Below, piece after piece: positions 1 to 11,936 of a stretch of 11,936 nucleotides of DNA. A program made the position numbers and the translations under genes. A model generated the notes under the pieces. The model was not told where the DNA came from, made no database searches, and saw only the letters and a program-made list of their open reading frames with translations. This stretch comes from an uncultured Dermabacter sp. (GTDB lineage: Bacteria; Actinomycetota; Actinomycetes; Actinomycetales; Dermabacteraceae). Positions within the stretch are counted from its first letter, which is position 1; every line of letters starts with the position of its first letter. Location of the stretch: positions 1 to 11,936 of the forward strand of contig CAMXWV010000017.1 in NCBI GenBank assembly GCA_947252755.1. Reading direction: 5' to 3'.

Positions 1-107
1 CCTAAACCAGCGGCGTGCACAACTGGAGAAGAACCCGCCCGATTCACCCCTATCAGCCACGGATCGAGCAGTCTAACCACACTTGTGCACGCCACGGGCC
101 TAAGCCG

Positions 108-135
108 CGGGCGCGGCCCGAAACCGGGCGCGCCA
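108..135 (-). terminator. Imperfect GC-rich hairpin downstream of ptsI (possible terminator, no U-tract)
   Basis: gcgcggcccg-aaac-cgggcgcgcc at 111-134. The gcccg/cgggc core stem has a bulged outer GC extension. It lies about 20-45 nt downstream of the ptsI stop on the minus strand. Confidence 0.25.
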
Positions 136-151
136 CCGCCGCGGCGTCAGC

Positions 152-1870
152 TCAGAGCCCGAGCTCCTCCAGAACCGGCAGCCTCTCGCGAACTGCTGCT
201 TTCGCTTGCGCCGCGGTCGGTGCGGTGACGGCAACCCGAGCCAGCTCTCGGCACTCTTCCAGTGTCACGGTGGACAGCACCCGGGCCACTGCCGGCAGCA
301 GGCGCGGCGTCATGGACAGCGAGTTCACGCCCAGGCCCACTAGCACGCACGCCAGCGCCGGATCCCCCGCGGACTCACCGCACACGCCCACGGGCTTGTT
401 CGCTTCAGCACCGAATGCGTCAGGGTCCCCTCCGGCAACCCGAGCACCGGTCGCGGTGGCGCCCACGAGCGCAAGCACCGCGGGCTGCCACGGATCGTTG
501 AGCTTCGCGAGGGAGCCGAGCATGCGGTCCGCAGCCATGGTGTACTGCGTGAGGTCATTGGTGCCGATGGAGGCGAAGTCCGCCACTGTCATCAGGTGGT
601 CACTGGTCAGCGCGGAGCTCGGGGTCTCTACCATGATGCCGGCGCGCTGCACACCCGCGGCGCGGGCCATGTCGATGAAGTCCTCGGTGTCCTCCAGCGT
701 GGAGATCATCGGCGCCATCACCCACGGCTCTGCCTCGGACTGCTCCGTGGCTCGACGAATCGCCTCCAGCTGGTTCTCCAGAACGGAACGCTTCTCCCAA
801 GAGGTGCGGTAGGCGCGGATGCCGAGCGCGGGGTTCGGCTCTTCCGCGTCGGTAAGGAACGGCAGCGGCTTGTCGGCGCCGGCGTCGATGGTGCGGATGG
901 TGACCTTCTTGCCGGGGAAGTGCTTGAGCACTTCCGCGTATGCCTGGGCCTGTTCCTCCACGCTCGGCTCCTCATCCCGGTCCAGGAAGAGGAACTCGGT
1001 GCGGAACAGGCCTACACCGTCGGCGTTTGCGGCCGCGGCGGCTTCAGCGTCCTGAGCGTTGCCCACGTTCGCCAGCAGCGGCATGGTTGTTCCACACTTC
1101 AGCTGCGCGCCGCCGCCGTCGTAGGTGAGGGGATTCTTCTGCAGCTCGTACCAGGCGTCAGCGAGCCCGCGCTCACGCTCACCGATTTCGGTGGTGACGA
1201 TTCCGGCTGCCCCATCCACGAACACCTCGGTGCCGTTGGGGATCTGGTCCACGCCCTTGGCTGCCACGATCGCAGGCAAGCCCAGTTGGCGGGCCAGAAT
1301 CGCAGTGTGGGACTGGGGGCCGCCGTCGGAGGTGATGAGCGCGGAGACGATCGTGGGATCGAGCGTGGCGGTGTCCGCGGGGGCAAGGTCGATCGCGGCG
1401 AGCACGAACCGTTCGGCGGAGTCGGGGATGCCGGGGGCGTCTTCGCCGCGCAGGTGCGCCACGATGCGGGCGCGCACGTCCTTCACGTCAGCGGCGCGCT
1501 CAGCCATGTACCCGCCAAGACCTTCAAGCATGGTGGCCACCTGGTCGCCGGCCTCCCAAACGGCCCGCTCAGGCGTTTTGTTCTCGCTGCGCACCAGGCT
1601 TTCGGCGGTGGTGGTGAGAGTGGGATCGGCGGCCATCTGAGCGGTGGCCTCCAGCACTGCCTTCCCGTCGCCGGTGGCGCGTTCGGCGCGCTTTTCAAGA
1701 GCATGCTTGACTGCGGCGGCGGAGGCAGCGATGCGGGCGGCTTCAGCCTCCGCATCAGCCCCGGCTGGAAGGCGGTCCGACGCGTTCGGCTCCGCAATCG
1801 GCGGCGCCATCACCAGCACGCGGTCCACCACGCGGCCCGGGCTCACTGCTACTCCGTTGAATTCCGTCAT
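152..1870 (-). CDS. ptsI: Phosphoenolpyruvate-protein phosphotransferase (PTS enzyme I)
   Basis: 572-aa ORF. It carries the enzyme I phosphohistidine region GGPQSHTAILAR and the PEP-utilising C-terminal domain motif GTNDLTQYTMAADR. RBS AAGGAGA lies 7 nt upstream of the ATG at 1870 (read on the minus strand). Confidence 0.93.
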   Translation of the reverse strand: MTEFNGVAVSPGRVVDRVLVMAPPIAEPNASDRLPAGADAEAEAARIAASAAAVKHALEKRAERATGDGKAVLEATAQMAADPTLTTTAESLVRSENKTPERAVWEAGDQVATMLEGLGGYMAERAADVKDVRARIVAHLRGEDAPGIPDSAERFVLAAIDLAPADTATLDPTIVSALITSDGGPQSHTAILARQLGLPAIVAAKGVDQIPNGTEVFVDGAAGIVTTEIGERERGLADAWYELQKNPLTYDGGGAQLKCGTTMPLLANVGNAQDAEAAAAANADGVGLFRTEFLFLDRDEEPSVEEQAQAYAEVLKHFPGKKVTIRTIDAGADKPLPFLTDAEEPNPALGIRAYRTSWEKRSVLENQLEAIRRATEQSEAEPWVMAPMISTLEDTEDFIDMARAAGVQRAGIMVETPSSALTSDHLMTVADFASIGTNDLTQYTMAADRMLGSLAKLNDPWQPAVLALVGATATGARVAGGDPDAFGAEANKPVGVCGESAGDPALACVLVGLGVNSLSMTPRLLPAVARVLSTVTLEECRELARVAVTAPTAAQAKAAVRERLPVLEELGL

Positions 1871-2054: not shown

Positions 2055-3650
2055 ATGCCCTCATTCGATCCGTCCCAGTCCAGCGTCACCGGTCAGCAGA
2101 CCGCGCAGTCCGCGTCGGCGCAGGGCACTCTCCCCGGTTTGGATGCCGCCGCCGGCTCTCCGCGACGCATCGGGTTCGATCGGGAGAAGTACATTCGGCT
2201 GCAGTCCCAGCACATCCATCAGCGACGCACCCAGATCGGCGGCAAACTGTATCTGGAGATGGGCGGGAAGCTGTTCGATGACATGCACGCGTCGCGGGTG
2301 CTTCCGGGCTTCACCCCGGATAACAAGATCGTCATGTTGGAGGAGCTGAAGGACGAGCTGGAGATCGTCATCGCGGTCAATGCGAAGGATCTGGAGCGCA
2401 CCAAGGTCCGCGCGGACTTCGGCATCACCTATGAGGAGGAGTCGCTGCGGCTGGTGGATGTGTTCCGCGATCGCGGGTTCCTGGTGCAGAACATTGTGCT
2501 CACCCAGATGGATGATGACAATCGCGCTGCCCGCGCTTTCAAGAGCCGTCTTGAGCGTCTGGGTTTGACGGTGCACCGGCACCGCACGATTCCCGGCTAC
2601 CCGGCGGATACGGCGCGCGTCGTCTCGCCGCAGGGCTTCGGCCGCAACGACTGGGTTGAGACCGAACGGGACCTGATCGTGGTGACTGCGCCGGGCCCCG
2701 GTTCCGGGAAGCTCGCCACGTGCCTGTCGCAGGTGTATAACGATCATCAGCGCGGCATTGCGTCCAGCTACGCGAAGTTCGAAACGTTTCCCATCTGGAA
2801 TCTGCCGCTCGACCACCCGGTTAACCTCGCGTATGAGGCGGCCACGGCGGATCTTGATGACGTCAATATGATCGATCCGCTGCACCTTGCCGCCTACAAC
2901 GAGCTGGCGGTGAACTACAACCGAGACGTTGAAGTGTTTCCGCTGCTCAAGGTGTTGCTGCAGCAGATGCTCGGCTCCTGCCCGTACGAATCCCCCACGG
3001 ATATGGGCGTGAACATGGTGGGCATGTGCATCTCTGATGACGACGCGTGCCGCTACGCCGCGAAGCAGGAGATCATCCGCCGCTATTTCAAGGCGCTGGT
3101 GGCGGAGAAGCGCGATGAGCTGGACAGTGACGTGTCCGAGAAGATCGCAATCATCATGGGCAAGGCGGGCGTGAACCGCGCGGATCGGCCCGTGGTGCTT
3201 CCGGCGCTGGAGACTGCCCGACGCACGCGCGGTCCGGCTTCGGCTATCGAACTGGCGGACGGCACCATCATCACCGGAAAGACCTCCGAGCTGCTCGGTG
3301 CGAGCTCCGCAATGCTGCTCAATGCGCTGAAGCACCTGGCAGGACTGTCGGATGACGCCCTGCTGCTCGCCCCGGAGGCGATCAAACCGATTCAGACACT
3401 GAAGGTGGACCATCTGGGGTCTCGTAATCCGCGTCTGCACACTGATGAGGTGCTGATTGCGCTGAGCGTATCGGCCGCGTCAGATGAGCGGGCGAAGGCT
3501 GCTCTGGATCAGCTGCAAAACCTGCGCGGCTGCGATGTGCACACCACCACGATCCTGGGAACAGTGGACGAGGGCATTTTCCGAGCGCTCGGCGTGGAGG
3601 TGACGAGCGAGCCGGAGTTCCAGGTAAAGCGCATGTTCCGTAAGCGCTGA
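2055..3650 (+). CDS. UPF0371 / DUF1846 family protein (conserved, function unknown)
   Basis: ORF 1956..3650. The family-typical N-terminus [17 protein letters not shown] begins about 33 aa after the ATG at 2055 (GAAGG 9 nt upstream), so the 2055 start is preferred over 1956. The ~530-aa length fits the family. Confidence 0.75.
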
Positions 3651-3688: not shown

Positions 3689-3716
3689 GGCGCCTAACGT
3701 TGGCGCCCTTCTTTTG
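3689..3716 (+). terminator. Rho-independent terminator of the UPF0371 gene
   Basis: ggcgcc-taacgtt-ggcgcc hairpin (3689-3707) followed by cttcttttg T-tract. A second small hairpin gggctg/cagccc lies at 3657-3677. Confidence 0.6.
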
Positions 3717-3718
3717 CG

Positions 3719-3857
3719 CAGAGCGTGGGAATGGTGCGGTAAAACCGTGGAATACCGCACGGTTCTCACGTTCTATGCGCCCGGAAGGAGGGACCCGTGG
3801 CCTCCTGTTGCTATGCCCCCCCTACCCCGGTAGAACGTGGGTTTGGTGCGGTAAAAC
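3719..3857. repeat. Tandem ~111-113-bp repeat array, left part (partial unit 3719-3736, full unit 3737-3849, first 8 bp of next unit 3850-3857)
   Basis: Unit starts ggtaaaacc..gaataccgcac.. and ends ..ggtaga(a/g)cgtgggttt(g/a)gtgc. The 3737-3849 unit is about 92-93% identical to 11761-11870. Confidence 0.8.
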
Positions 3858-3911
3858 GGCTCTTCACGAACGAGGGTGTAGCGCGGGTCTGAACCCTCCG
3901 GCTTCGAGCAG
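3858..3911 (-). mobile_element. 54-bp remnant of an ISL3-family IS right end in inverted orientation (terminal IR plus last 16 codons of transposase)
   Basis: 3858-3911 equals the reverse complement of 11707-11760 (the intact IS right end) with 2 mismatches. Its reverse complement encodes LLEAGGFRPALHPRS*, against LLEAGGSRPALHPRS* for the intact transposase C-terminus. Homology stops abruptly at 3912. Confidence 0.85.
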
Positions 3912-4338
3912 CGACCGACCCTGCAGACGCTGAGTACCAGATCCGTAAACTCGAGAACGCCTCCAACACCATCAGTGACGAGGTCTTCCACTACTGGAGC
4001 CAGAACACTGAGCTAAGCGTGAAACTCACGCTCATCCCAGGACCCGGGCCATCAACGTCTCGTGCAACGAGCGAACAAGAGCCCTTCCTACAGGTCCGTG
4101 TCCAAAACGACCGGCACCGTGTCACCGTCCCGTTCAATGAACGTTCGCGCGGCTTCGTGTGGTTCTTCTCGTTCCTAGCTTATTTCTCCCAGATCGAGGA
4201 CGAGTCCTCCTACCCGTTAATCCTGCTGCTTGATGAGCCTGGGCTGAGTCTGCATGCCACGGCTCAGCATGACCTCCTGCGATTCATCCGGGAACGCCTC
4301 GCTCCCGAGCACCAAGTGCTCTTCACCACGCACTCGCC
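3912..4338 (+). pseudogene. Internal fragment of an AAA_21/AAA_15-type (ABC/OLD/RecF-like) ATPase
   Basis: The open frame has no start codon and no Walker A. It contains SRGFVWFFSFLAYF (degenerate signature/Q-region), Walker B ILLLDEPGLSLH, and H-loop VLFTTHSP as its last recognisable residues. GC is roughly mid-50s % (hand count of three 60-bp lines), against about 70% in flanking genes. It uses tta/cta/ctt codons. Confidence 0.6.
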
Positions 4339-5211
4339 CTGCGTAACGTCATCGGCTCGATGGACCTCGAGCAGACGCTCACCAGCCGCGACCAGATCAA
4401 TGGCCAGCTGCGCGGCGTCCTCGACGAGGCCACCGGCCGCTGGGGCATCCGCGTCAACCGGGTGGAGCTCAAGGCGATCGACCCGCCGGCCAGCGTCCAG
4501 GGCTCGATGGAGCAGCAGATGCGCGCCGAGCGTGACCGCCGTGCGGCGATCCTCACGGCCGAGGGTGTCAAGCAGTCCCAGATCCTCACCGCCGAGGGTG
4601 AGAAGCAGGCCGCGATCCTCCAGGCCCAGGGTGAGTCGCGCGCCATCCTCCAGGTCTTCGACGCGATCCACCGCGGCAAGCCCGACTCCAAGCTGCTCGC
4701 CTACCAGTACCTGCAGATGCTGCCCGAGCTGGCCAACGGCACCTCGGACAAGCTGTGGGTCATCCCCACCGAGTTCACCGCGGCGCTGGGCACCATCGCC
4801 CGCGGCTTCGGCGGCTCGCCCGGCGGTAGCGGCCCGTCCGACGACGACTCCGGACCCACGCCCGAGGTCGACTTCGGCCCGGGTGGCCCGATGATGGCCT
4901 CCGGGCTGGCCGAGACCAGTCTGCAGGACCCCGACCAGGCGCTTGCCCAGGCCCGCAGCGAGGCGCAGCAGGCGACCTCCGAGGCGACCGCGGCCGGTGA
5001 GCGCTCCGACAGCCCGTTCTCCCGCTCGGCCGAGCGCGGGCAGCGGCCCGCCGAGAGCGAGCGGCGCGACACCGGACGGACCCGGCCGCGGGTCCGCCGA
5101 GCACCGCGGTGCCGCCGGCGCCCGACGCGCCTCCGCCCGCCCGGCCGGAAGGCGACGAGGAGCGGCCGGGTCAGTAGGGCACTGGCCCGCCTCGCCACCT
5201 GCGACCGGTGA
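4336..5211 (+). pseudogene. 5'-truncated SPFH/band-7 (stomatin-like) protein fragment
   Basis: The frame opens with no start and reads ALRNVIGSMDLEQTLTSRDQINGQLRGVLDEATGRWGIRVNRVELKAIDPP (SPFH core C-terminal half), then the stomatin-type coiled coil AILTAEGVKQSQILTAEGEKQAAILQAQGE. The N-terminal membrane anchor and first half of the SPFH domain are absent. The distal Arg-rich tail is of doubtful frame. Confidence 0.7.
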
Positions 5212-5249
5212 ACCTGGCCCATCCAAGGACAGAGTTCACCGGTCGCAGG
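5198..5249. repeat. 16-bp perfect inverted repeat with 20-nt spacer between convergent SPFH fragment and lacI-family gene
   Basis: cctgcgaccggtgaac (5198-5213) is the exact reverse complement of gttcaccggtcgcagg (5234-5249). The SPFH-frame stop TGA (5209-5211) lies inside the left arm. Confidence 0.7.
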
Positions 5250-5270
5250 CGTCGGGGCAGTCGGCGTGGA

Positions 5271-6281
5271 TCAGCCGCCGCCGTCACCCAGACTTGCCCG
5301 CGGGTGCAGTATCAGCTCTGACGCAGGTCCGGGTGCTCCGGCGAGGGTGCTGCCGAGGCTCTTCGTGACGGCGAGCATGAGGCGGGCGCAGATCACGTCG
5401 AGGTCGAAGGAGATCGTCGCGAGCTCCGGTTGTGCGAGTCGCCCGGCGGGGATGTCGTCGACGCCGATGACCGCGAGCCGTGCGGGCACCTCGATGCCGG
5501 CGGCCCGGGCAGCAGTGAGCACGGCCAGAGCGACGTCGTCGTTGTGGGCGCACACCCCGGTGACACCGGCCTCGACGCACGAGCGGAGCTCCGCCGTCGA
5601 TACCGCGCTACTCGGGGACCCCAGGATCAGGGGATCGGGCAGCACCAGCTCGCGGCAGACGGCCGTCACCCCGGAGAGGCGCCCCTCGGCCAGGCCGGTG
5701 AGGCGAGGGTCCGCCGGGAGCGCGTACGCGAGCCGCTGACGTCCGGCGGCCACCATCGCCTCGGCCTGGGCGCGTCCGACCGCCGCAGTCGGAACGGGCA
5801 CGTCGTGGACTTCGTCGGCGTCCCGTGCCGATGAGTGCGCGACCGTCCACCGCGCCACGGGGATCCGTAGCTCACGGATCGGGTCGATGCGCTCGGGGTC
5901 GAGGTCGACGAGGACGATGACGGCTGCCGGCAGCAGCTCCCGGCAGAGAGCACCGAGGTCGTCACCTGCGAACGAGAGCTTGGCGAGCAGGTGCAGGCCG
6001 GCGCGTGAGCAGGCCGTGGTCAGTCGCTCGAGCAGCCCGACGAGGACGGGGCCCACCGGGACGTCGGGGACGACGAGCAGCACGAGGTCGCTGCGTCCCC
6101 GGGCGAGCGCGCGGGCGGCACCCGATCGGACGTAGCCGAGCTCGGCGGCGGCGGCACGCACGCGTTCGCGCGTGTGTTCCGGGATGCTCTGACCGGGCTT
6201 GTCGTTGAGGACGTAGCTCACGGTTGCCGTGGATACGCCGGTTGCGGAGGCGACGTCCGCCAACGTCGGGCGTCGCACCAC
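5271..6281 (-). CDS. LacI-family transcriptional regulator
   Basis: N-terminal HTH RPTLADVASATGVSTATVSYVLN and periplasmic-binding-fold body. The likely start is GTG at 6281 (V-V-R-R-P-T-L...) with GGAGG 7 nt upstream (6289-6293), rather than the ATG at 6350. Confidence 0.85.
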   Translation of the reverse strand: MVRRPTLADVASATGVSTATVSYVLNDKPGQSIPEHTRERVRAAAAELGYVRSGAARALARGRSDLVLLVVPDVPVGPVLVGLLERLTTACSRAGLHLLAKLSFAGDDLGALCRELLPAAVIVLVDLDPERIDPIRELRIPVARWTVAHSSARDADEVHDVPVPTAAVGRAQAEAMVAAGRQRLAYALPADPRLTGLAEGRLSGVTAVCRELVLPDPLILGSPSSAVSTAELRSCVEAGVTGVCAHNDDVALAVLTAARAAGIEVPARLAVIGVDDIPAGRLAQPELATISFDLDVICARLMLAVTKSLGSTLAGAPGPASELILHPRASLGDGGG

Positions 6282-6329
6282 TGCCTCACCTCCGTGACGA
6301 CGATCACGAACCGGATGAACTGCCGACCC

Positions 6330-6372
6330 TTGATGGGCCCGCGACTCCATCCTATATTAGTTATGCGCATAA
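6330..6372 (+). promoter_or_regulatory. Putative promoter (-35 TTGATG 6330-6335, 17-nt spacer, -10 TATATT 6353-6358) and 12-bp palindrome TTATGCGCATAA (6361-6372), a candidate LacI-family operator
   Basis: Perfect palindrome with a central GCGC like symmetric lac operators. It sits 3 nt downstream of the -10 hexamer, over the predicted transcription start, 36 nt upstream of the glucosidase ATG, in the divergent regulator/operon intergenic region. Confidence 0.45.
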
Positions 6373-6407
6373 GTGCAGCGCTTAAGTTTCCAATGGAGGA
6401 GATTGGC

Positions 6408-8144
6408 ATGCCCACGAACAGCCGTGCCTGGTGGCACGAGGCGGTTGTCTACCAGATCTACGTGCGTTCCTTCGCCGACTCCGACGGCGACGGTCTCGGG
6501 GACCTCGCGGGTGTCCGCTCGCGCCTCGACCATCTCGAGAGCCTCGGGGTCGACGTCATCTGGCTCACGCCCTTCTACCCCTCGCCCATGGCGGACAACG
6601 GGTACGACGTCAGTGACTACGAGGCGGTGGACCCGCGCTTCGGTTCCGAGGGGGACCTCGACGATCTCATCGCCGACATCCACCGCCGTGGTATGAGGGT
6701 GATCATCGATGTGGTCCTCAACCACACGTCGATCGACCATCCATGGTTCGTGGAGTCGCGCAGCACGCGCTCGTCGTCTCGACGCGACTGGTACATCTGG
6801 CGGCCCCCGAGGGACGGGGTGGAACCAGGCACGCCCGGCGCGGAGCCGACGAACTGGCTCGGCTTCTTCGCCCAGCCGACGTGGACGTACGACGAGGAGA
6901 GCGGTGAGTACTACCTTCACCTCTTCTCCCCGGAGCAGCCCGACCTCAACTGGGAGAACCAGGAGGTTCGCCAAGCGCTCTACGCGATGCTGCGCCGCTG
7001 GCTCGCCCGCGGCGTCGACGGGTTCCGCCTCGATGTCATCAACCTCATCTCCAAGAGGTATCCGCTGCAGGACGTGCCGACGCCGCACTCGAGCCACTAC
7101 GGTGATGCCTCCTCGCAGTACACCTGCGGGCCACGGATGCTCGAGTTCCTCGACGAGCTGCGGGACCAGGTGTTCGACACCGCCGAGAAGACCCTGCTCA
7201 CGGTGGGCGAGATGCCGGGGGCGACCGTCAAGGACGGGCTCGCCGTCACCGGCGGTGAGCGCCCCCGCCTCAGCATGATCTTCACGTTCGAGCACATGGA
7301 CGTCGATCACGCGCCCGGCTGGGGCGGACGGTACGAGCCGAGGCCGTTCGACCTGCTCGCGCTGAAATCGACCATGGCACGCTGGCAGGAAGGACTGGGC
7401 CGTTCCGGGTGGAACAGTCTCTACTTCGGCAACCACGACCAGGCCCGCGTCGCCTCCCGCTTCGGTTCCCGGTCGCCGGCGCACGCGGTCGCCTCGGCGA
7501 AGATGCTCGCCACGGTTCTCCACCTGCACCGTGGGACGCCATACGTCTACCAGGGCGACGAGATCGGCATGCGCAACTACCCGTTCGCGAGCATCGAGCA
7601 GTTCGCCGACATCGATGCGCACAACTCGTGGGCGTACGGCCGGGCACTGGGTGTCCTGCCGGAACGGCTCCTTGCGGGCCTGCGCCAGAACGGCCGCGAC
7701 AACGCTCGCACGCCCATGCAGTGGGACGCGTCGGAGCACGGGGGATTCACCACCGGTACTCCGTGGCTGCCGCTCAACCCGAACACCTCCGAGGTCAACG
7801 TCGAGGCTCAGATCGACGACGCGGACTCGGTCCTCGCCCACTACCGACGCCTCATCGAGCTGCGTCACAGCAGTGACATCGTGGTCTTCGGTGACTACCG
7901 CCTCCTCGCCCGCGACCACGAGTACCTGTACGCCTTCGAGCGGACGCTCGGCGACGAGCGATGGATCGTGGTCGCGAACTTCTCCGACGAGGAGCTCGAT
8001 GTCGCTGCGGCTCTCGGCGGCGCCGTCGGTGCCGCCGAGCTGATACTTGGGACTCACCACGAGCCGCCCGAGGGTGCGGTCCTGCAGCGGCTGCGCCCCT
8101 GGGAGGCCCAGATCTGCCGTGTGCTCAAGGGGAGTGAGCAGTGA
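6408..8144 (+). CDS. GH13 alpha-glucosidase / oligo-1,6-glucosidase-type hydrolase
   Basis: 578 aa from ATG 6408 (GGAGGA 7 nt upstream). GH13 conserved regions: DVVLNHTS, GFRLDVINLIS (catalytic Asp), GEMPG (acid/base Glu), FGNHDQ, plus QPDLNWEN. The ORF-track start at 6174 is an upstream extension overlapping the regulator gene. Confidence 0.9.
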   Translation: MPTNSRAWWHEAVVYQIYVRSFADSDGDGLGDLAGVRSRLDHLESLGVDVIWLTPFYPSPMADNGYDVSDYEAVDPRFGSEGDLDDLIADIHRRGMRVIIDVVLNHTSIDHPWFVESRSTRSSSRRDWYIWRPPRDGVEPGTPGAEPTNWLGFFAQPTWTYDEESGEYYLHLFSPEQPDLNWENQEVRQALYAMLRRWLARGVDGFRLDVINLISKRYPLQDVPTPHSSHYGDASSQYTCGPRMLEFLDELRDQVFDTAEKTLLTVGEMPGATVKDGLAVTGGERPRLSMIFTFEHMDVDHAPGWGGRYEPRPFDLLALKSTMARWQEGLGRSGWNSLYFGNHDQARVASRFGSRSPAHAVASAKMLATVLHLHRGTPYVYQGDEIGMRNYPFASIEQFADIDAHNSWAYGRALGVLPERLLAGLRQNGRDNARTPMQWDASEHGGFTTGTPWLPLNPNTSEVNVEAQIDDADSVLAHYRRLIELRHSSDIVVFGDYRLLARDHEYLYAFERTLGDERWIVVANFSDEELDVAAALGGAVGAAELILGTHHEPPEGAVLQRLRPWEAQICRVLKGSEQ

Positions 8145-9583
8145 TGGCATCGACCCCCTCGGCATCGGTGAGCAAGAGGCTCGTCCTGGTCACGGTGACC
8201 GCAGCGCTGGGCTTCTTCCTCTTCGGCTACGACACGGCCGTCATCAACGGGGCTATCGACGCGCTCGCCGACCACTACGGCCTCGGCAGTGGCCTCAAGG
8301 GCTTCGCGGTCTCCTCTGCCCTGCTCGGTTGCGTCATCGGCGCGTGGTTCGCCGGCCCGCTGTCGAACCGCGTCGGCCGGGTGCCAGTCATGCTCACCTC
8401 GTCCGTCCTCTTCCTCGCGTCGGCGATAGGTACTGGCCTCGCGTTCGGCATCACCGATCTCATCGTGTGGCGGGTCGTCGGCGGTCTCGGAGTCGGCGCC
8501 GCCTCCGTCATCGCCCCCACCTACATCGCCGAGATCTCTCCAGCACACATGCGCGGGCGCCTCGTCTCGATGCAGGGCCTCGCGGGTGTCACCGGCATCG
8601 CGGTCTCGCTCTTCGTCGATGCCGGCCTGGCGTGGCAGGCCGGCGGTGCCGCGAACCCCCTCTGGTTCGACCTGCCCGCGTGGCGGTGGATGTTCATCGT
8701 CGAGGCGGTTCCGGCCATCGCCTACGGCGTCGCCGCACTGAGGGTGCCGGAGTCACCGCGATACCTCGTCGGCCTCGGGCGCGACGCGGACGCCGAGCAC
8801 GTGCTGAGGACCTGCACGGGCCTGGCCGACCCACGCGCGAAGATCGAGGAGATCCGTGGCTCGCTGCAGACGGACCGCCGCGCATCGCTACGCGATCTCG
8901 CGGGTCGGGCGTTCGGGCTCAAGCCGATCGTGTGGGTAGGCATCCTCGTCGCGGCCGCCCAGCAGTTCGTCGGTATCAACGTCATCTTCTACTACTCGAC
9001 CACCCTCTGGCGCTCGGTCGGATTCGGTGAGTCGAACGCACTGCTCATCACCGGGATCACCTCCCTCATCAACATTGGCGCGACGGTGCTCTCAATCCTG
9101 CTCATCGACAAGGTTGGCAGGCGCCTGCTCATGCTCTCCGGGTCACTCGGCATGGCGGTGACCCTCGGGGTCATGGCACTCGCGTTCTCGCAGGCGATCA
9201 CCACCGTCGCTGGTGAGGTCCTGCTGCCGGGCGTCTGGGGTGTGGTCGCCCTCGTCAGCGCGAACCTGTTCGTCGCCTTCTTCGGCGCGACCTGGGGCTC
9301 GGTCATGTGGGTGGTGCTCGGCGAGATGTTCCCCAACCGAATCCGTGCCGGGGCGATGGCCGTCTCGACCGCCGTGAACTGGCTGTCGAACTTCGCCATC
9401 TCGACCACCTTCCCCGTGATGGCGGCGATCTCGTTGACCGGCTCGTACAGTTTCTACGCACTCAGCGCCCTCGCGTCGTTCTTCCTCGTGAAGCACCTCG
9501 TCAAGGAGACGGCGGGCATCGAGCTCGAGGACATGGACAGTCAGCTCCGACACACGCCTGCCCCGGATCACGGCAATCGGTAG
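8144..9583 (+). CDS. MFS sugar-porter-family transporter
   Basis: 479 aa. It has the sugar-porter N-terminal FGYDTAVINGA, PESPRYL, and 12-TM-like hydrophobic periodicity. The ATG 8144-8146 overlaps the glucosidase stop TGA 8142-8144 (TGATG coupling), with GGGGAG 9 nt upstream. Confidence 0.85.
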   Translation: MASTPSASVSKRLVLVTVTAALGFFLFGYDTAVINGAIDALADHYGLGSGLKGFAVSSALLGCVIGAWFAGPLSNRVGRVPVMLTSSVLFLASAIGTGLAFGITDLIVWRVVGGLGVGAASVIAPTYIAEISPAHMRGRLVSMQGLAGVTGIAVSLFVDAGLAWQAGGAANPLWFDLPAWRWMFIVEAVPAIAYGVAALRVPESPRYLVGLGRDADAEHVLRTCTGLADPRAKIEEIRGSLQTDRRASLRDLAGRAFGLKPIVWVGILVAAAQQFVGINVIFYYSTTLWRSVGFGESNALLITGITSLINIGATVLSILLIDKVGRRLLMLSGSLGMAVTLGVMALAFSQAITTVAGEVLLPGVWGVVALVSANLFVAFFGATWGSVMWVVLGEMFPNRIRAGAMAVSTAVNWLSNFAISTTFPVMAAISLTGSYSFYALSALASFFLVKHLVKETAGIELEDMDSQLRHTPAPDHGNR

Positions 9584-9608
9584 CCGGGCGAACCCCACCG
9601 CACCGATC

Positions 9609-9645
9609 GGTGTGCTCCGTCGGTCCACGACCGACGGAGCACACC
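9609..9645 (+). terminator. 15-bp perfect-stem hairpin 26 nt after the transporter stop (terminator-like, no T-tract)
   Basis: ggtgtgctccgtcgg-tccacga-ccgacggagcacacc. Confidence 0.5.
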
Positions 9646-9666
9646 TGTGGCCGTTCGGGTGAGGGC

Positions 9667-9867
9667 ATGCTCGTCACCGCCACCGTCGATGACCTGGCAC
9701 GGGAGGCCGACGCGCGCGCCGCGGTGGACAACCTGGCCGCGACCGCCCGGCTGCGGCTGCGCCCGGTGTACGGCTCGCAGGACTCCGCCTTCGCGGCCGC
9801 CCTGCCGCTGGGCCTGGTGCTGCCCAAGCACATCAAGATCCCGGCCGAGCTGAGGGAGAAGCTGTGA
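9667..9867 (+). CDS. Small hypothetical protein (66 aa), translationally coupled to the downstream ATPase fragment
   Basis: ATG at 9667 after GGTGAGGG. Its stop TGA (9865-9867) overlaps the GTG start (9864) of the next ORF as GTGA. It is Ala/Arg/Leu-rich with no recognisable domain. Confidence 0.4.
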   Translation: MLVTATVDDLAREADARAAVDNLAATARLRLRPVYGSQDSAFAAALPLGLVLPKHIKIPAELREKL

Positions 9868-10250
9868 CCACGACAGACCAGACCCAGCAGCGGACCGGCC
9901 GGGGAACACGAGCCGGCAAGCCAGCGCCGGTGCGGCCGCGGCGCCCGCCGATGCGCGGCTGGCTCGGGCGCGGGCGCGGGCAGTCCTTCTACCTGCAGAC
10001 CCCGGCCGAGTGGCGCGGCACGACCATGCAGGTCTGCGGTCTGTGGCCCTTCGCCGTCGGCGCCGGCACCCCGATGGTCGGTGTCCCGTTCGGGCGCCAC
10101 ATCCACACCGGCGCCACCCTGTGCTGCGACCCCATCTCCTGGTACCAGCGCGCCAACCTCATCGGGAACCCCTCGGTGTTCTTCCTCGGCCGCCCCGGCC
10201 TGGGCAAGACCTCGGCGGTCATGCGCACGGCCGTGGGCCTCAGCGGCTAA
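9864..10250 (+). pseudogene. N-terminal fragment (128 aa) of a conjugation/DNA-transfer-type P-loop ATPase
   Basis: Basic Pro/Arg-rich N-terminus, then FYLQTPAEWRGTTMQVCGLWPF...VFFLGRPGLGKTS (Walker A GxxGxGKT). The ORF stops 15 codons after Walker A. No Walker B or later motifs are present before the IS at 10335. Confidence 0.5.
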
Positions 10251-10382
10251 GGGGTCATCCCGCTCGTGCGTAGCTCCTGCGAAAGTACGAGGCACCGGTA
10301 CCAAAGTCCCATTTTCAAGGGCGAACACTTTCCCGGCTCTTCGCGAACGAGGGTGTAGTCGGTTGAGTGCGTCGGTGGCCGG

Positions 10383-10460
10383 GTAGGGGTCGAGGTCTTT
10401 CGGATGATGGAAGTTCTTCACGCTTGCCATCTCGAAAGACCTCGACGTGCTCCACCCTAC
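10383..10460 (+). promoter_or_regulatory. Long imperfect stem-loop in the IS leader ending at the transposase start codon
   Basis: gtcgaggtctttcg (10389-10402) is the exact reverse complement of cgaaagacctcgac (10433-10446). The outer gtaggg/ccctac extension and an inner gatggaag/cttgccatc stem add to it. The GTG start (10447) is immediately 3' of the right arm, and there is no obvious SD. Confidence 0.35.
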
Positions 10461-11754
10461 TTTCGCGACCCCTGACTTGACCACGTTCTGCCGGCTCGAC
10501 GAGCTCGGGCTCGTCGCCGTCGGCCAGCTGATCGAGCCGGATCGGGCCACGATCGAATGCCGCGTCGTCGAGGACGACCCGTGGTGTCGGAAGTGCGGTG
10601 TCGAGGGCGTGCCGCGGGACACGGTCACGCGTCGACTGGCGCACGAGCCGTTCGGGCACCGGCCGACGACCCTGCTGGTGCGGGTGCGCCGGTACCGGTG
10701 CGGACACTGCCGGCGCACGTGGCGGCAGGACATGACGCGGGCAGCGGCGCCGCGTGCGAAGATCTCCCGCGGCGGCCTGGAGTGGGCGCTGCGGGGCATC
10801 GTCATCGACCACCTCACCGTGACCCGTGTCGCCGCGGGCCTGGGGGTGTCCTGGAGCGCCGCGAACACTGCGGTGCTCGCGGAGGGCAAGCGTCGACTGA
10901 TCGACGATCCCGCCCGGTTCGACGCGGTCACCACGATCGGTGTCGACGAGCACGTCTGGCGGCACACCCGCCTCGGCGACAAGTACGTGACCGTGATCAT
11001 CGACCTCACCCCGGCCCGCGAGAAGACAGGACCCGCGCGGCTGCTGGACATGGTCAAGGGTCTTTCGAAGGCGGTGTTCAAGCAGTGGCTCGCCGCCCGC
11101 CCTGCGGACTGGGCGAAGCGGATCGAGGTGGTCGCGATGGACGGCTTCGCAGGCTTCAAGACCGCCGCCGCCGAAGAACTCCCCGACGCCGTCCCCGTCA
11201 TGGACCCGTTCCACGTGGTCCGCCTCGCCGGCGACGCGCTGGATGTCTGCCGGCGTCGGGTCCAGCAAGACACCACCGGTCACCGCGGGCTCAAGGGCGA
11301 CCCGCTCTACAAAGCCCGCCGCACCCTGCACACCGGGGCGAGCCTGCTCACCGACCGGCAGCGGGCACGCCTGGACGCAGTGTTCGCGAGCGAGGAGCAC
11401 GTCGAAGTCGAGGCGACCTGGGGCATCTACCAGCGCATCGTCGCGGCCTACCGGGAGCCCGACAAGAAGAAAGCGAAGGCGATGGTGCAGGAGGTAATCG
11501 CTGCGATCAGCAGCGGCGTTCCCGCGGCGCTCGTCGAGGTCCGCAAGCTCGGCCGGACCATGAAGCAGCGGGCGGGCGACATCCTCGCGTTCTTCGACCG
11601 CCCCGGCACCAGCAACGGCCCGACCGAGGCGATCAACGGCCGGCTCGAACACCTCCGCGGCTCCGCACTCGGATTCCGCAACCTCACCCACTACATCGCA
11701 CGCAGTCTGCTCGAAGCCGGAGGGTCCAGACCCGCACTACACCCTCGTTCGTGA
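10447..11754 (+). CDS. ISL3-family transposase
   Basis: 435 aa. N-terminal zinc-finger-like Cys pairs (CRKCG...CGHCRR), DDE-type core (GVDEH, VAMDGFAGF, DPFHVV) and C-terminal NGPTEAINGRLEHL. The stop TGA lies within the right IR. Confidence 0.9.
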   Translation: MLHPTFATPDLTTFCRLDELGLVAVGQLIEPDRATIECRVVEDDPWCRKCGVEGVPRDTVTRRLAHEPFGHRPTTLLVRVRRYRCGHCRRTWRQDMTRAAAPRAKISRGGLEWALRGIVIDHLTVTRVAAGLGVSWSAANTAVLAEGKRRLIDDPARFDAVTTIGVDEHVWRHTRLGDKYVTVIIDLTPAREKTGPARLLDMVKGLSKAVFKQWLAARPADWAKRIEVVAMDGFAGFKTAAAEELPDAVPVMDPFHVVRLAGDALDVCRRRVQQDTTGHRGLKGDPLYKARRTLHTGASLLTDRQRARLDAVFASEEHVEVEATWGIYQRIVAAYREPDKKKAKAMVQEVIAAISSGVPAALVEVRKLGRTMKQRAGDILAFFDRPGTSNGPTEAINGRLEHLRGSALGFRNLTHYIARSLLEAGGSRPALHPRS

Positions 11755-11760
11755 AGAGCC

Positions 11761-11936
11761 GGTAAAACCCGGGAATACCGCACGGTTCTCACGCTCTATG
11801 CGCGCGGAAGGAGGGACCCGTGGTCTCCTGTTGCTATGCCCCCTACCCCGGTAGAGCGTGGGTTTAGTGCGGTAAAACCACGGAATACTGCACTATTCTC
11901 ACGTTCTGCGTCCGCTACGGACACGAGCCGCCCCTT
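11761..11936. repeat. Tandem ~111-bp repeat array, right part (unit 11761-11870, degenerate partial unit 11871-11936, window end)
   Basis: 11761-11870 aligns to 3737-3849 with about 8 substitutions and a 2-bp C-run indel. 11871-11911 matches the first ~40 bp of the unit and then diverges. Confidence 0.8.

What the first reader, a model, noticed from the sequence alone, without database searches (positions are those of the whole stretch)
3858..11760. 7.9-kb composite-transposon-like element: inverted ISL3-family ends with identical 8-bp target duplications GGTAAAAC
Read directly from the sequence. The intact IS right end (11707-11760) recurs in inverted orientation at 3858-3911, 52 of 54 nt identical, including the last 16 transposase codons. 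GGTAAAAC lies immediately outside both outer ends (3850-3857 and 11761-11768). Deleting 3858-11768 rejoins a single tandem-repeat unit, ...gtgc|ggtaaaac|ccgggaataccgcac.... ISL3-family elements make 8-bp target duplications. The simplest reading is therefore a single transposition of the whole 7.9-kb segment using two outward-facing right ends, like Tn5 or Tn10 with inverted IS copies. The left IS copy has since decayed to 54 bp. The intact IS left end (10335) is flanked by ACTTTCCC, which has no partner. That argues against the intact IS being an independent simple insertion. The cargo includes an intact, regulated sugar-utilisation cassette (regulator, alpha-glucosidase, MFS transporter) plus fragments of defence-type and conjugation-type ATPases. 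So this looks like a mobilisable carbohydrate-catabolism module assembled from several sources.
Basis: seen in the sequence. Interest (0 to 1): 0.85.

Follow-up and report, generated by a model that had tools for sequence, protein, structure and literature searches.

The report
ISL3-bounded transposon carrying a sugar-use cassette
A 7.9-kb mobile unit, bounded by one intact ISL3-family insertion sequence and a 54-bp inverted stump of a second copy, carried a widely shared alpha-glucosidase/transporter cassette into a hairpin between a housekeeping gene and an rRNA operon of an uncultured Dermabacteraceae bacterium; it is a well-documented but ordinary example of a compound transposon.

Summary
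An inverted 54-nt copy of the IS right end lies at 3858-3911, with the terminal 24-nt IR identical. An intact 1,426-bp ISL3 element lies at 10335-11760. GGTAAAAC abuts both outer ends. Removing 3858-11768 restores a normal ~110-bp hairpin unit. Three sister lineages (97-99% nt identity in the flanking genes) carry uninterrupted units with one GGTA(A/G)AAC each and no insertion. One of them has the predicted joined sequence with one mismatch. Related ISs in complete plasmids show perfect 8-bp duplications in 3 of 4 full-length copies. The best reading is therefore one transposition of IRR'-cargo-IS as a unit. Orientation rules out cointegrate, inversion and IS-IS recombination models. Positions 3908-10334 are one pre-existing block, 96-99% identical to IS-free contigs. 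In those contigs homology stops exactly at the IS left end (ACTTTCCC|CTGCGC...). The left stump joins the cargo through a 4-nt microhomology (GCAG). Whether that deletion came before or after the insertion cannot be told. No second insertion site of the unit was found. The LacI-GH13-MFS core occurs at ≥97.8% nt identity in several actinobacterial genera beside different mobile elements. Verdict: a new member of a known kind, of modest interest.

The parts
3706..3857 (+). Host intergenic hairpin units (~110 nt each) downstream of the DUF1846 gene. Unit 2 is cut at 3857.
   Evidence: (D1-D3). The hairpin GTGCGGTA-loop-TACCGCAC is predicted.
3850..3857 (.). Left copy of the 8-bp target-site duplication GGTAAAAC.
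   Evidence: It spans the last 4 nt of the hairpin stem and the first 4 nt of the loop.
3858..3911 (-). 54-nt stump of a second IS copy: the IRR end, inverted relative to the intact IS. The terminal 24-nt IR is intact. Positions 3908-3911 (GCAG) are shared with the cargo and form a microhomology joint.
   Evidence: (I1).
3908..4340 (+). C-terminal part of an AAA_15/AAA_21 ATPase gene. The N-terminal part is present in L109/L110/L118 but missing here.
   Evidence: Pfam. Collinearity with L109, L110, L118, L121 and L125.
4360..5211 (+). N-terminally truncated SPFH/Band_7 ORF. The same truncation is present in all other copies of the block. Here one 33-nt repeat is missing and the tail is frameshifted.
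5271..6281 (-). LacI-family regulator, 336 aa, full length.
6408..8144 (+). GH13 alpha-glucosidase, 578 aa, full length. It differs by 3 residues from the Sinomonas protein P0365.
8144..9583 (+). MFS sugar-porter family transporter, 479 aa. The terminator hairpin lies at 9609-9645.
   Evidence: I21.
9667..10334 (+). Remnants of actinobacterial conjugation genes: the last 50 aa of an SCO6880-family protein, then the N-terminus of an ATP/GTP-binding protein with Walker A. There is a nonsense codon at 10248-10250 and a breakpoint at ~10269. The last 65 nt are unrelated DNA ending in ACTTTCCC.
   Evidence: (H7, H8).
10335..11760 (+). Intact ISL3-family IS, 1,426 bp. IRL is 10335-10358, the transposase is 10447-11754 (435 aa), and IRR is 11737-11760.
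   Evidence: (I2).
11761..11768 (.). Right copy of the 8-bp target-site duplication GGTAAAAC.
11769..11936 (+). Remainder of hairpin unit 2 and unit 3. The host DNA continues to the 3' end of a 5S rRNA gene on the minus strand, just beyond the window.

Best explanation
A compound (composite-type) transposon. An ISL3-family IS inserted to the right of a pre-existing LacI-GH13-MFS block in a donor element, at the site ...ACTTTCCC|CTGCGC.... A second copy sat in inverted orientation on the left side of the block. The IS transposase then used the two outward-facing, identical IRR termini to move IRR'-block-IS as one 7,903-bp unit. The target was the loop region of an intergenic hairpin between the DUF1846 gene and an rrn operon in an uncultured Dermabacteraceae chromosome. 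The move duplicated 8 bp (GGTAAAAC).

All but 54 nt of the left IS copy, and the adjoining part of the AAA gene, were removed by an illegitimate deletion at a 4-nt microhomology. That deletion happened either in the donor or soon after insertion.

Shown here: the anatomy, the 8-bp duplication, the empty sites, the IS family and its duplication length, and the IS-free form of the cargo. Inferred: that a single transposition event delivered the unit, that a full left IS copy once existed, and the order of events.
For: - Ends and duplication.
- Restored unit: it aligns without gaps to 7 other units.
- Empty sites: sister lineages L091, L094 and L097 are 97.4-98.8% identical over the flanking 3.6-3.7 kb and have DUF1846, uninterrupted hairpin units and downstream DNA with no IS or cargo. 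L097 contains window 3834-3857 joined to 11769-11793 with one mismatch.
- Duplication length: related ISs in complete plasmids have perfect 8-bp duplications, CGTTTGAC, GGAAAAAT and ATGGAACC, in 3 of 4 full-length copies.
- Transposase: full length, above the NCBIfam ISL3 cut-off, and the same 435 aa as homologues that are about 90% identical.
- IS-free cargo: L118/L119 match 3908-5109 and 5253-10334, and the match ends exactly at the IS boundary. They share the derived breakpoint at 10269 with the window.
- Left joint: L118, L109 and L110 continue leftward through the AAA gene where the window has the IS stump, with a GCAG overlap.
- Read-through: independent assemblies read through the IS into the right flank (L002, L083, L084).
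Against: - No second insertion site of the unit and no donor with both IS copies was found.
- All assemblies are short-read metagenomes. In one sample the graph branches at the IS left end, and that IS differs at 16 synonymous sites. So the IS is multi-copy there, and linkage across it is not proven by long reads.
- The empty sites are in lineages about 2% diverged, with 2 rather than 3 hairpin units. They are not base-perfect orthologous empty sites.
- Several other copies of related ISs lack duplications. Rearrangement around these ISs is therefore common.
Confidence: 0.8

Rival explanations
1. Simple IS insertion first, creating the GGTAAAAC duplication. The cargo was acquired later next to it by cointegrate formation, by recombination between IS copies, or by inversion-type intramolecular transposition.
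For: The intact IS abuts the right duplication. Remnants of conjugative-element genes abut its left end, as a resolved cointegrate with a plasmid would leave.
Against: - A cointegrate or IS-IS crossover leaves IS copies in direct orientation, each with one IRL and one IRR. Here the left end is unambiguously IRR-type and inverted.
- Inversion-type transposition predicts the reverse complement of the duplication and of the host repeat next to IRL. Observed instead is ACTTTCCC plus donor DNA that is continuous in L118.
Confidence: 0.04
2. Two independent, site-specific IS insertions into the same position of adjacent or different hairpin units, followed by deletion or rearrangement. On this reading the identical octamers reflect target preference, not a single event.
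For: GGTAAAAC is present in every unit. Flanks of related ISs are A/T-rich with TTTCC/GGAAA-like motifs, which suggests some target preference.
Against: - Excision of exactly insertion plus 8 bp restores regular 112/110-nt spacing and a gap-free unit.
- The model needs two insertions, loss of the intervening repeat, import of 6.4 kb, and loss of the second duplication at IRL.
- The IRL flank is donor DNA, not host repeat.
Confidence: 0.04
3. The locus is larger or differently linked than assembled. The IS attached to the cargo and the IS attached to the right flank are different copies with further DNA between them, collapsed by short-read assembly.
For: - The L001 contig stops 140 nt into the IS.
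- L084 starts exactly at the IS end and carries 16 synonymous differences.
- A second related ISL3 element, 91% identical at the protein level, occurs in the same samples.
Against: - Three assemblies from different samples and assemblers read through (window, L002, L083).
- Both outer junctions are individually secure, and both face outward with IRR ends and the same octamer. So the compound-unit conclusion would survive, with only the size changed.
Confidence: 0.08

Closest known systems
Tn10 / Tn5 type compound transposons (inverted IS10 or IS50 copies; established knowledge)
   Same: Cargo is bracketed by IS ends in inverted orientation. The outer ends are used. A family-typical target duplication flanks the whole unit. 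One IS supplies the transposase.
   Different: The IS family is ISL3, not IS4. One IS copy is reduced to a 54-nt terminal stump. The cargo is catabolic, not a resistance gene. Mobility of the unit is inferred from one insertion only.
ISL3-family IS elements of Actinomycetota (e.g. IS31831 of Corynebacterium and IS1096 of Mycobacterium, from my own knowledge; relatives in Microbacterium and Arthrobacter plasmids seen here)
   Same: DDE_Tnp_ISL3 transposase with an N-terminal zinc ribbon. About 24-nt IRs starting GGCTCTTC. About 1.4 kb long. 8-bp duplications.
   Different: This copy has no duplication of its own, because it is the arm of a larger unit. Its transposase is only about 90% identical to the nearest database proteins. 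The ISfinder name was not checked.
ISL3 elements with passenger genes, such as ISPpu12 (PMC4133298)
   Same: An ISL3-family transposase moves non-transposition genes.
   Different: In ISPpu12 the passengers lie inside a single IS, between IRL and IRR. Here the cargo lies outside the IS and is captured by an extra IRR end.
Catabolic or metabolic compound transposons, e.g. chlorate-reduction composite transposons (PMC3735179)
   Same: A metabolic gene cluster bracketed by IS elements and found in unrelated hosts.
   Different: Different IS families, genes and hosts. Here only one full IS remains.

Membership tests
ISL3-family insertion sequence (element 10335-11760) | DDE transposase of the ISL3 family | tested here: met
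   Pfam PF01610 at 8.1e-54 covering 1-239/240, plus Zn_ribbon_ISL3. NCBIfam NF033550 at 354.7 bits against a cut-off of 180.
ISL3-family insertion sequence (element 10335-11760) | Terminal inverted repeats of ~15-40 nt, starting GGCTCTT | tested here: met
   IRL GGCTCTTCGCGAACGAGGGTGTAG and IRR GGCTCTTCACGAACGAGGGTGTAG, 23/24 identical (I2, 19).
ISL3-family insertion sequence (element 10335-11760) | 8-bp target-site duplication | tested here: met
   Three of four full-length relatives in complete plasmids have perfect 8-bp duplications. The copy in the window has none of its own (ACTTTCCC vs GGTAAAAC), as expected for an arm of a compound unit.
Compound (composite) transposon | Two IS copies bracketing the cargo | tested here: inconclusive
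   One intact copy plus a 54-nt terminal stump of a second. A full second copy is inferred, not seen.
Compound (composite) transposon | Outer termini are intact IRs in inverted orientation | tested here: met
   The terminal 24 nt are identical at 3858-3881 and 11737-11760, reverse-complemented.
Compound (composite) transposon | Target duplication of the IS-typical length flanks the whole unit, and excision restores the target | tested here: met
   GGTAAAAC on both sides. The restored unit aligns without gaps to other units.
Compound (composite) transposon | Empty site in related genomes | tested here: met
   L091, L094 and L097, which are 97.4-98.8% nt identical in flanking genes, have no insertion.
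Compound (composite) transposon | The same unit at other sites with other duplications (demonstrated mobility) | tested here: not met
   All contigs with the exact GH13 or transposase are this locus. Junction patterns are absent from JGI metagenomes. Other copies of the block lack this IS.
Cointegrate-derived or IS26-like pseudo-compound transposon | IS copies in direct orientation | tested here: not met
   The left end is IRR-type and inverted relative to the intact IS.
One-ended transposition unit (ISEcp1 / IS91-like) | One genuine IS end plus a weakly similar surrogate end in flanking DNA | tested here: not met
   The left end is a bona fide 54-nt IS terminus, 52/54 identical, with an identical IR.

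The most novel reading that the evidence does not exclude
The unit moved when its left arm was already only a 54-nt solo IRR. A single ISL3 element plus a stray end would then suffice to mobilise 6.4 kb of adjacent DNA. In addition, this IS clade may preferentially target the loops of intergenic hairpin repeats. If both are true, the solo ISL3 ends and MITE-like derivatives seen in actinobacterial genomes (L101, L118) would be latent capture sites. That could help explain how the same LacI-GH13-MFS cassette reached Dermabacter, Sinomonas, Propioniciclava and other genera at ≥97.8% nt identity.
Probability: 0.3. Interest if true: 0.45.

Novelty: new member of a known kind. Interest (0 to 1): 0.3.

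Why it matters
This is a clean natural example of how a catabolic cassette is passed between hosts. It has both junctions, empty sites on the host side, and an IS-free form on the cargo side. It shows an ISL3 element in Actinomycetota acting as the arm of a compound transposon. It also shows that an alpha-glucoside utilisation module, nearly identical in sequence, is shared among several actinobacterial genera on at least five kinds of mobile element. None of this changes current understanding of transposition. It is useful for annotation and for studying niche adaptation in Dermabacteraceae.

Tried and rejected
- **Genome collection scan.** The genome-contig scan with the DUF1846 protein found no relative closer than 79%. 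The host species is therefore not among the GTDB representatives, and no empty site came from that route.
- **Metagenome scans.** Two exact-pattern scans of JGI metagenomes, for the stump|AAA junction and the cargo|IRL junction, found nothing.
- **Rfam.** No family matched in the window, including the hairpin units.
- **Plasmid megablast.** A search with the whole unit found only the IS and the conjugation-gene fragment, never the unit.
- **Other IS copies in metagenome contigs.** Copies L085-L089 gave no duplications. I did not use them as evidence against 8 bp, because they sit at rearranged or possibly mis-joined sites. Complete plasmids were used instead.
- **Extended IR.** I considered that the IR extends outward (TTTCCC/TTTACC, I2). 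I rejected this because the stump's flank (TAAAAC) does not share it.
- **Other models.** Cointegrate, inversion and IS-IS recombination models were rejected on orientation and flank content.
- **Literature.** Two searches for a citable statement of the ISL3 8-bp duplication found no suitable source. That point rests and on ISfinder knowledge.
Full report
**1. The observation**

- The window holds an intact ISL3-family IS at 10335-11760 (1,426 bp).
  - Its IRs are GGCTCTTCGCGAACGAGGGTGTAG (left) and GGCTCTTCACGAACGAGGGTGTAG (right, reverse-complemented).
  - It encodes a 435-aa transposase at 10447-11754.
  - NCBIfam places the transposase in the ISL3 equivalog, well above cut-off.
  - Many database contigs of related elements are exactly 1,426 bp, as expected for a repeated IS.
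- At 3858-3911 there is an inverted copy of the right end, 52/54 identical. The terminal 24 nt are identical, and the next 30 nt match the transposase C-terminal side, not the IRL side.
- GGTAAAAC lies directly outside both outer ends (3850-3857 and 11761-11768).
- The octamer occurs four times in the window against 0.04 expected, once in every ~110-nt hairpin unit of the host spacer. So its presence at a junction is not informative by itself. The extra copy is the informative feature.
- After removing 3858-11768, the units are spaced 112 and 110 nt apart. The rejoined unit aligns without gaps to seven other units.
- The duplication spans the 3' end of the left arm of an 8-bp stem and the start of an 11-nt loop.

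**2. Host and locus**

- The left flank is ptsI (152-1870, minus strand) followed by a DUF1846/UPF0371 gene (2055-3650).
- Contigs that extend further right reach the 3' end of a 5S rRNA gene on the minus strand. I recognised the 5S rRNA by eye; no tool was run on it. The insertion therefore sits in a spacer between convergent units, which is a harmless site.
- The nearest named relative of the DUF1846 protein is Helcobacillus massiliensis at 78%, and a Dermabacteraceae MAG at 79%. The host is an uncultured member of the Dermabacteraceae.
- The same structure occurs in at least five samples with almost no divergence: 0 differences in 10,475 nt for L001, and 5 in 11,936 nt for L002.

**3. Empty sites**

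- The 90% cluster of the DUF1846 protein has four full-length variants.
- The three variants that are not the window's own (L091-L098) are 97.4-98.8% identical to the window over the flanking 3.6-3.7 kb.
- All three carry uninterrupted hairpin units directly after the gene. L094 and L097 run on into the DNA that follows the last unit in the window, with no IS and no cargo.
- L097 contains GAACGTGGGTTTGGTGCGGTAgAACCCGGGAATACCGCACGGTTCTCACG. That is window 3834-3857 joined to 11769-11793 with one mismatch.
- These lineages have two units where the window has three, so they are not base-perfect empty sites. They do show that the insertion is derived and that a unit carries one octamer.

**4. Duplication length**

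- Among related ISs (75-83% nt identity) in complete plasmids, three of four full-length copies have perfect 8-bp duplications: CGTTTGAC, GGAAAAAT and ATGGAACC.
- A 383-bp MITE-like derivative in a Dermacoccus plasmid has a 6/8 match.
- Copies taken from metagenome contigs and one from a genome assembly had none. They sit next to truncated genes or may be mis-joined, so they do not bear on the length.

**5. The cargo**

- Positions 3908-10334 are one pre-existing block.
- L118/L119 match 3908-5109 (96%) and 5253-10334 (99.3%). The match stops exactly at the IS left end, and L118 continues ...ACTTTCCC|CTGCGCGGACGC....
- The window and L118 share a derived breakpoint at about 10269 inside the ATP/GTP-binding conjugation gene. 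Other copies (L121, P0380, P0385, P0386) read on as ...VIPLVLGV.
- The IS therefore entered an L118-like arrangement 65 nt to the right of that breakpoint. The missing second ACTTTCCC is what a compound transposition would leave behind in the donor.
- On the left, L118, L109 and L110 continue through the AAA_15/AAA_21 gene where the window has the IS stump. The joint has a 4-nt overlap, GCAG. This is the mark of an illegitimate deletion that removed the rest of the left IS and the adjacent DNA.
- The AAA|Band_7 junction and the N-terminal truncation of the Band_7 ORF are present in all copies. They are therefore older than this element.
- The regulator (336 aa), GH13 enzyme (578 aa) and MFS sugar porter (479 aa) are full length.
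- The GH13 enzyme scores above the PRK10933 phosphotrehalase subfamily cut-off but below the TreC equivalog cut-off. It is paired with an MFS porter, not a PTS, so I call it an alpha-glucosidase of unassigned substrate.

**6. Spread of the core cassette**

- The core 5253-9670 is ≥97.8% identical in very different settings:
  - beside a tRNA gene (recognised by eye in the sequence) and a truncated tyrosine integrase (L107);
  - beside resolvase and Mu/Tn552-like transposition genes in Sinomonas (L120, L122);
  - among IS4-like, IS3, IS21 and another ISL3 element (L108);
  - with DUF4913 conjugation genes (L109, L110).
- Source names in the 90% cluster include Sinomonas, Propioniciclava, Dermabacter, Brachybacterium and a Mycobacteroides record.

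**7. Mechanism and rivals**

- Two identical, outward-facing IRR termini, an 8-bp duplication, empty host sites and an IS-free form of the inner junction fit one transposition of IRR'-block-IS as a unit.
- Recombination between IS copies, or a cointegrate, would leave direct repeats, each with one IRL and one IRR.
- Inversion-type intramolecular transposition would place the reverse complement of the duplication and of the host repeat next to IRL.
- Two site-specific insertions would need several further events.
- None of these rivals fits.
- The main technical caveat is linkage across a multi-copy IS in short-read assemblies. In one sample the graph branches at the IS left end, and the IS there differs at 16 synonymous sites. 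Three other assemblies read through.
- The timing of the deletion cannot be decided. All carriers already have the stump. Its two differences from the intact IS must predate the insertion, because carriers have diverged by about 0.04% or less.

**8. Verdict**

- This is a new member of a known kind: a compound transposon built on an ISL3 element. It carries a widely shared alpha-glucoside utilisation cassette.
- Interest is modest. The value lies in how completely the event can be reconstructed from public data.

Noticed in passing
window 3706-3857 and 11769-11936; L091, L094, L097 downstream of DUF1846: The spacer between DUF1846 and the rrn operon is built of ~110-nt units, each with an 8-bp-stem hairpin (GTGCGGTA-11 nt-TACCGCAC). 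Unit number and sequence vary between lineages that are about 98% identical (2 vs 3 units). There is no Rfam match, and their function is unknown.
   Followed up: partly
window 1-136; L001 7551-7877; L002 763-1089: A different ~110-nt repeat with its own hairpin (GGCGTGCACAA...TTGTGCACGCC) lies downstream of ptsI. It recurs two more times further along in the ptsI-HPr spacer. This genome seems rich in intergenic tandem hairpin repeats.
   Followed up: no
L101 (Dermacoccus nishinomiyaensis plasmid NZ_CP008890.1) 3008-3390 and 5014-5396: Two 383-bp internally deleted, MITE-like derivatives of this IS. Both IRs are intact and the left end is 95% identical to the window's IS. One has 6/8-matching 8-nt flanks (CCTTTCCG/GCTTTTCG).
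   Followed up: partly
L084 (same sample as L001) vs window 10335-11760: The IS in this sample differs from the window's IS at 16 sites, all synonymous, while 10.4 kb of flanking DNA is identical. The contig also starts exactly at the IS end. This suggests several IS variants in that sample, or gene conversion between copies.
   Followed up: no
L085/L086 4889-6314 (same samples as L083 and L002): A second ISL3 element, with a transposase 91% identical, sits next to a truncated hsdM gene without any target duplication (ACCAGATC / GAGAAACC). This is a sign of IS-associated deletion or rearrangement. The contig may or may not belong to the same genome.
   Followed up: no
L107, L108, L109/L110, L118, L120/L122, L123: The LacI-GH13-MFS core is ≥97.8% identical across contigs attributed to different actinobacterial genera, with nested left and right truncations. 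It lies beside at least five kinds of mobile element: tRNA-integrase island, Mu/Tn552-like transposon, IS3, IS4-like/IS21, and conjugation genes. In L123 the LacI gene is missing.
   Followed up: partly
window 10248-10250: The TAA stop that ends the 128-aa ORF is TAC (Tyr) in L118, which indicates a nonsense mutation in an already truncated conjugation ATPase gene.
   Followed up: yes
window 4546-4635: A 33-nt in-frame tandem repeat lies in the Band_7 ORF (2.7 copies). The window has one copy fewer than L110 and also a frameshifted, proline/arginine-rich C-terminal tail.
   Followed up: yes
L118 11827-11850; L119 7979-8002: A solo ISL3-type IRR (CTACACCCTCAATTGCGAAGAGCC) lies directly after an IS3-family element, about 2.3 kb to the right of the cargo block. 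Orphan ISL3 ends like the 54-nt stump appear to be common in these regions.
   Followed up: no
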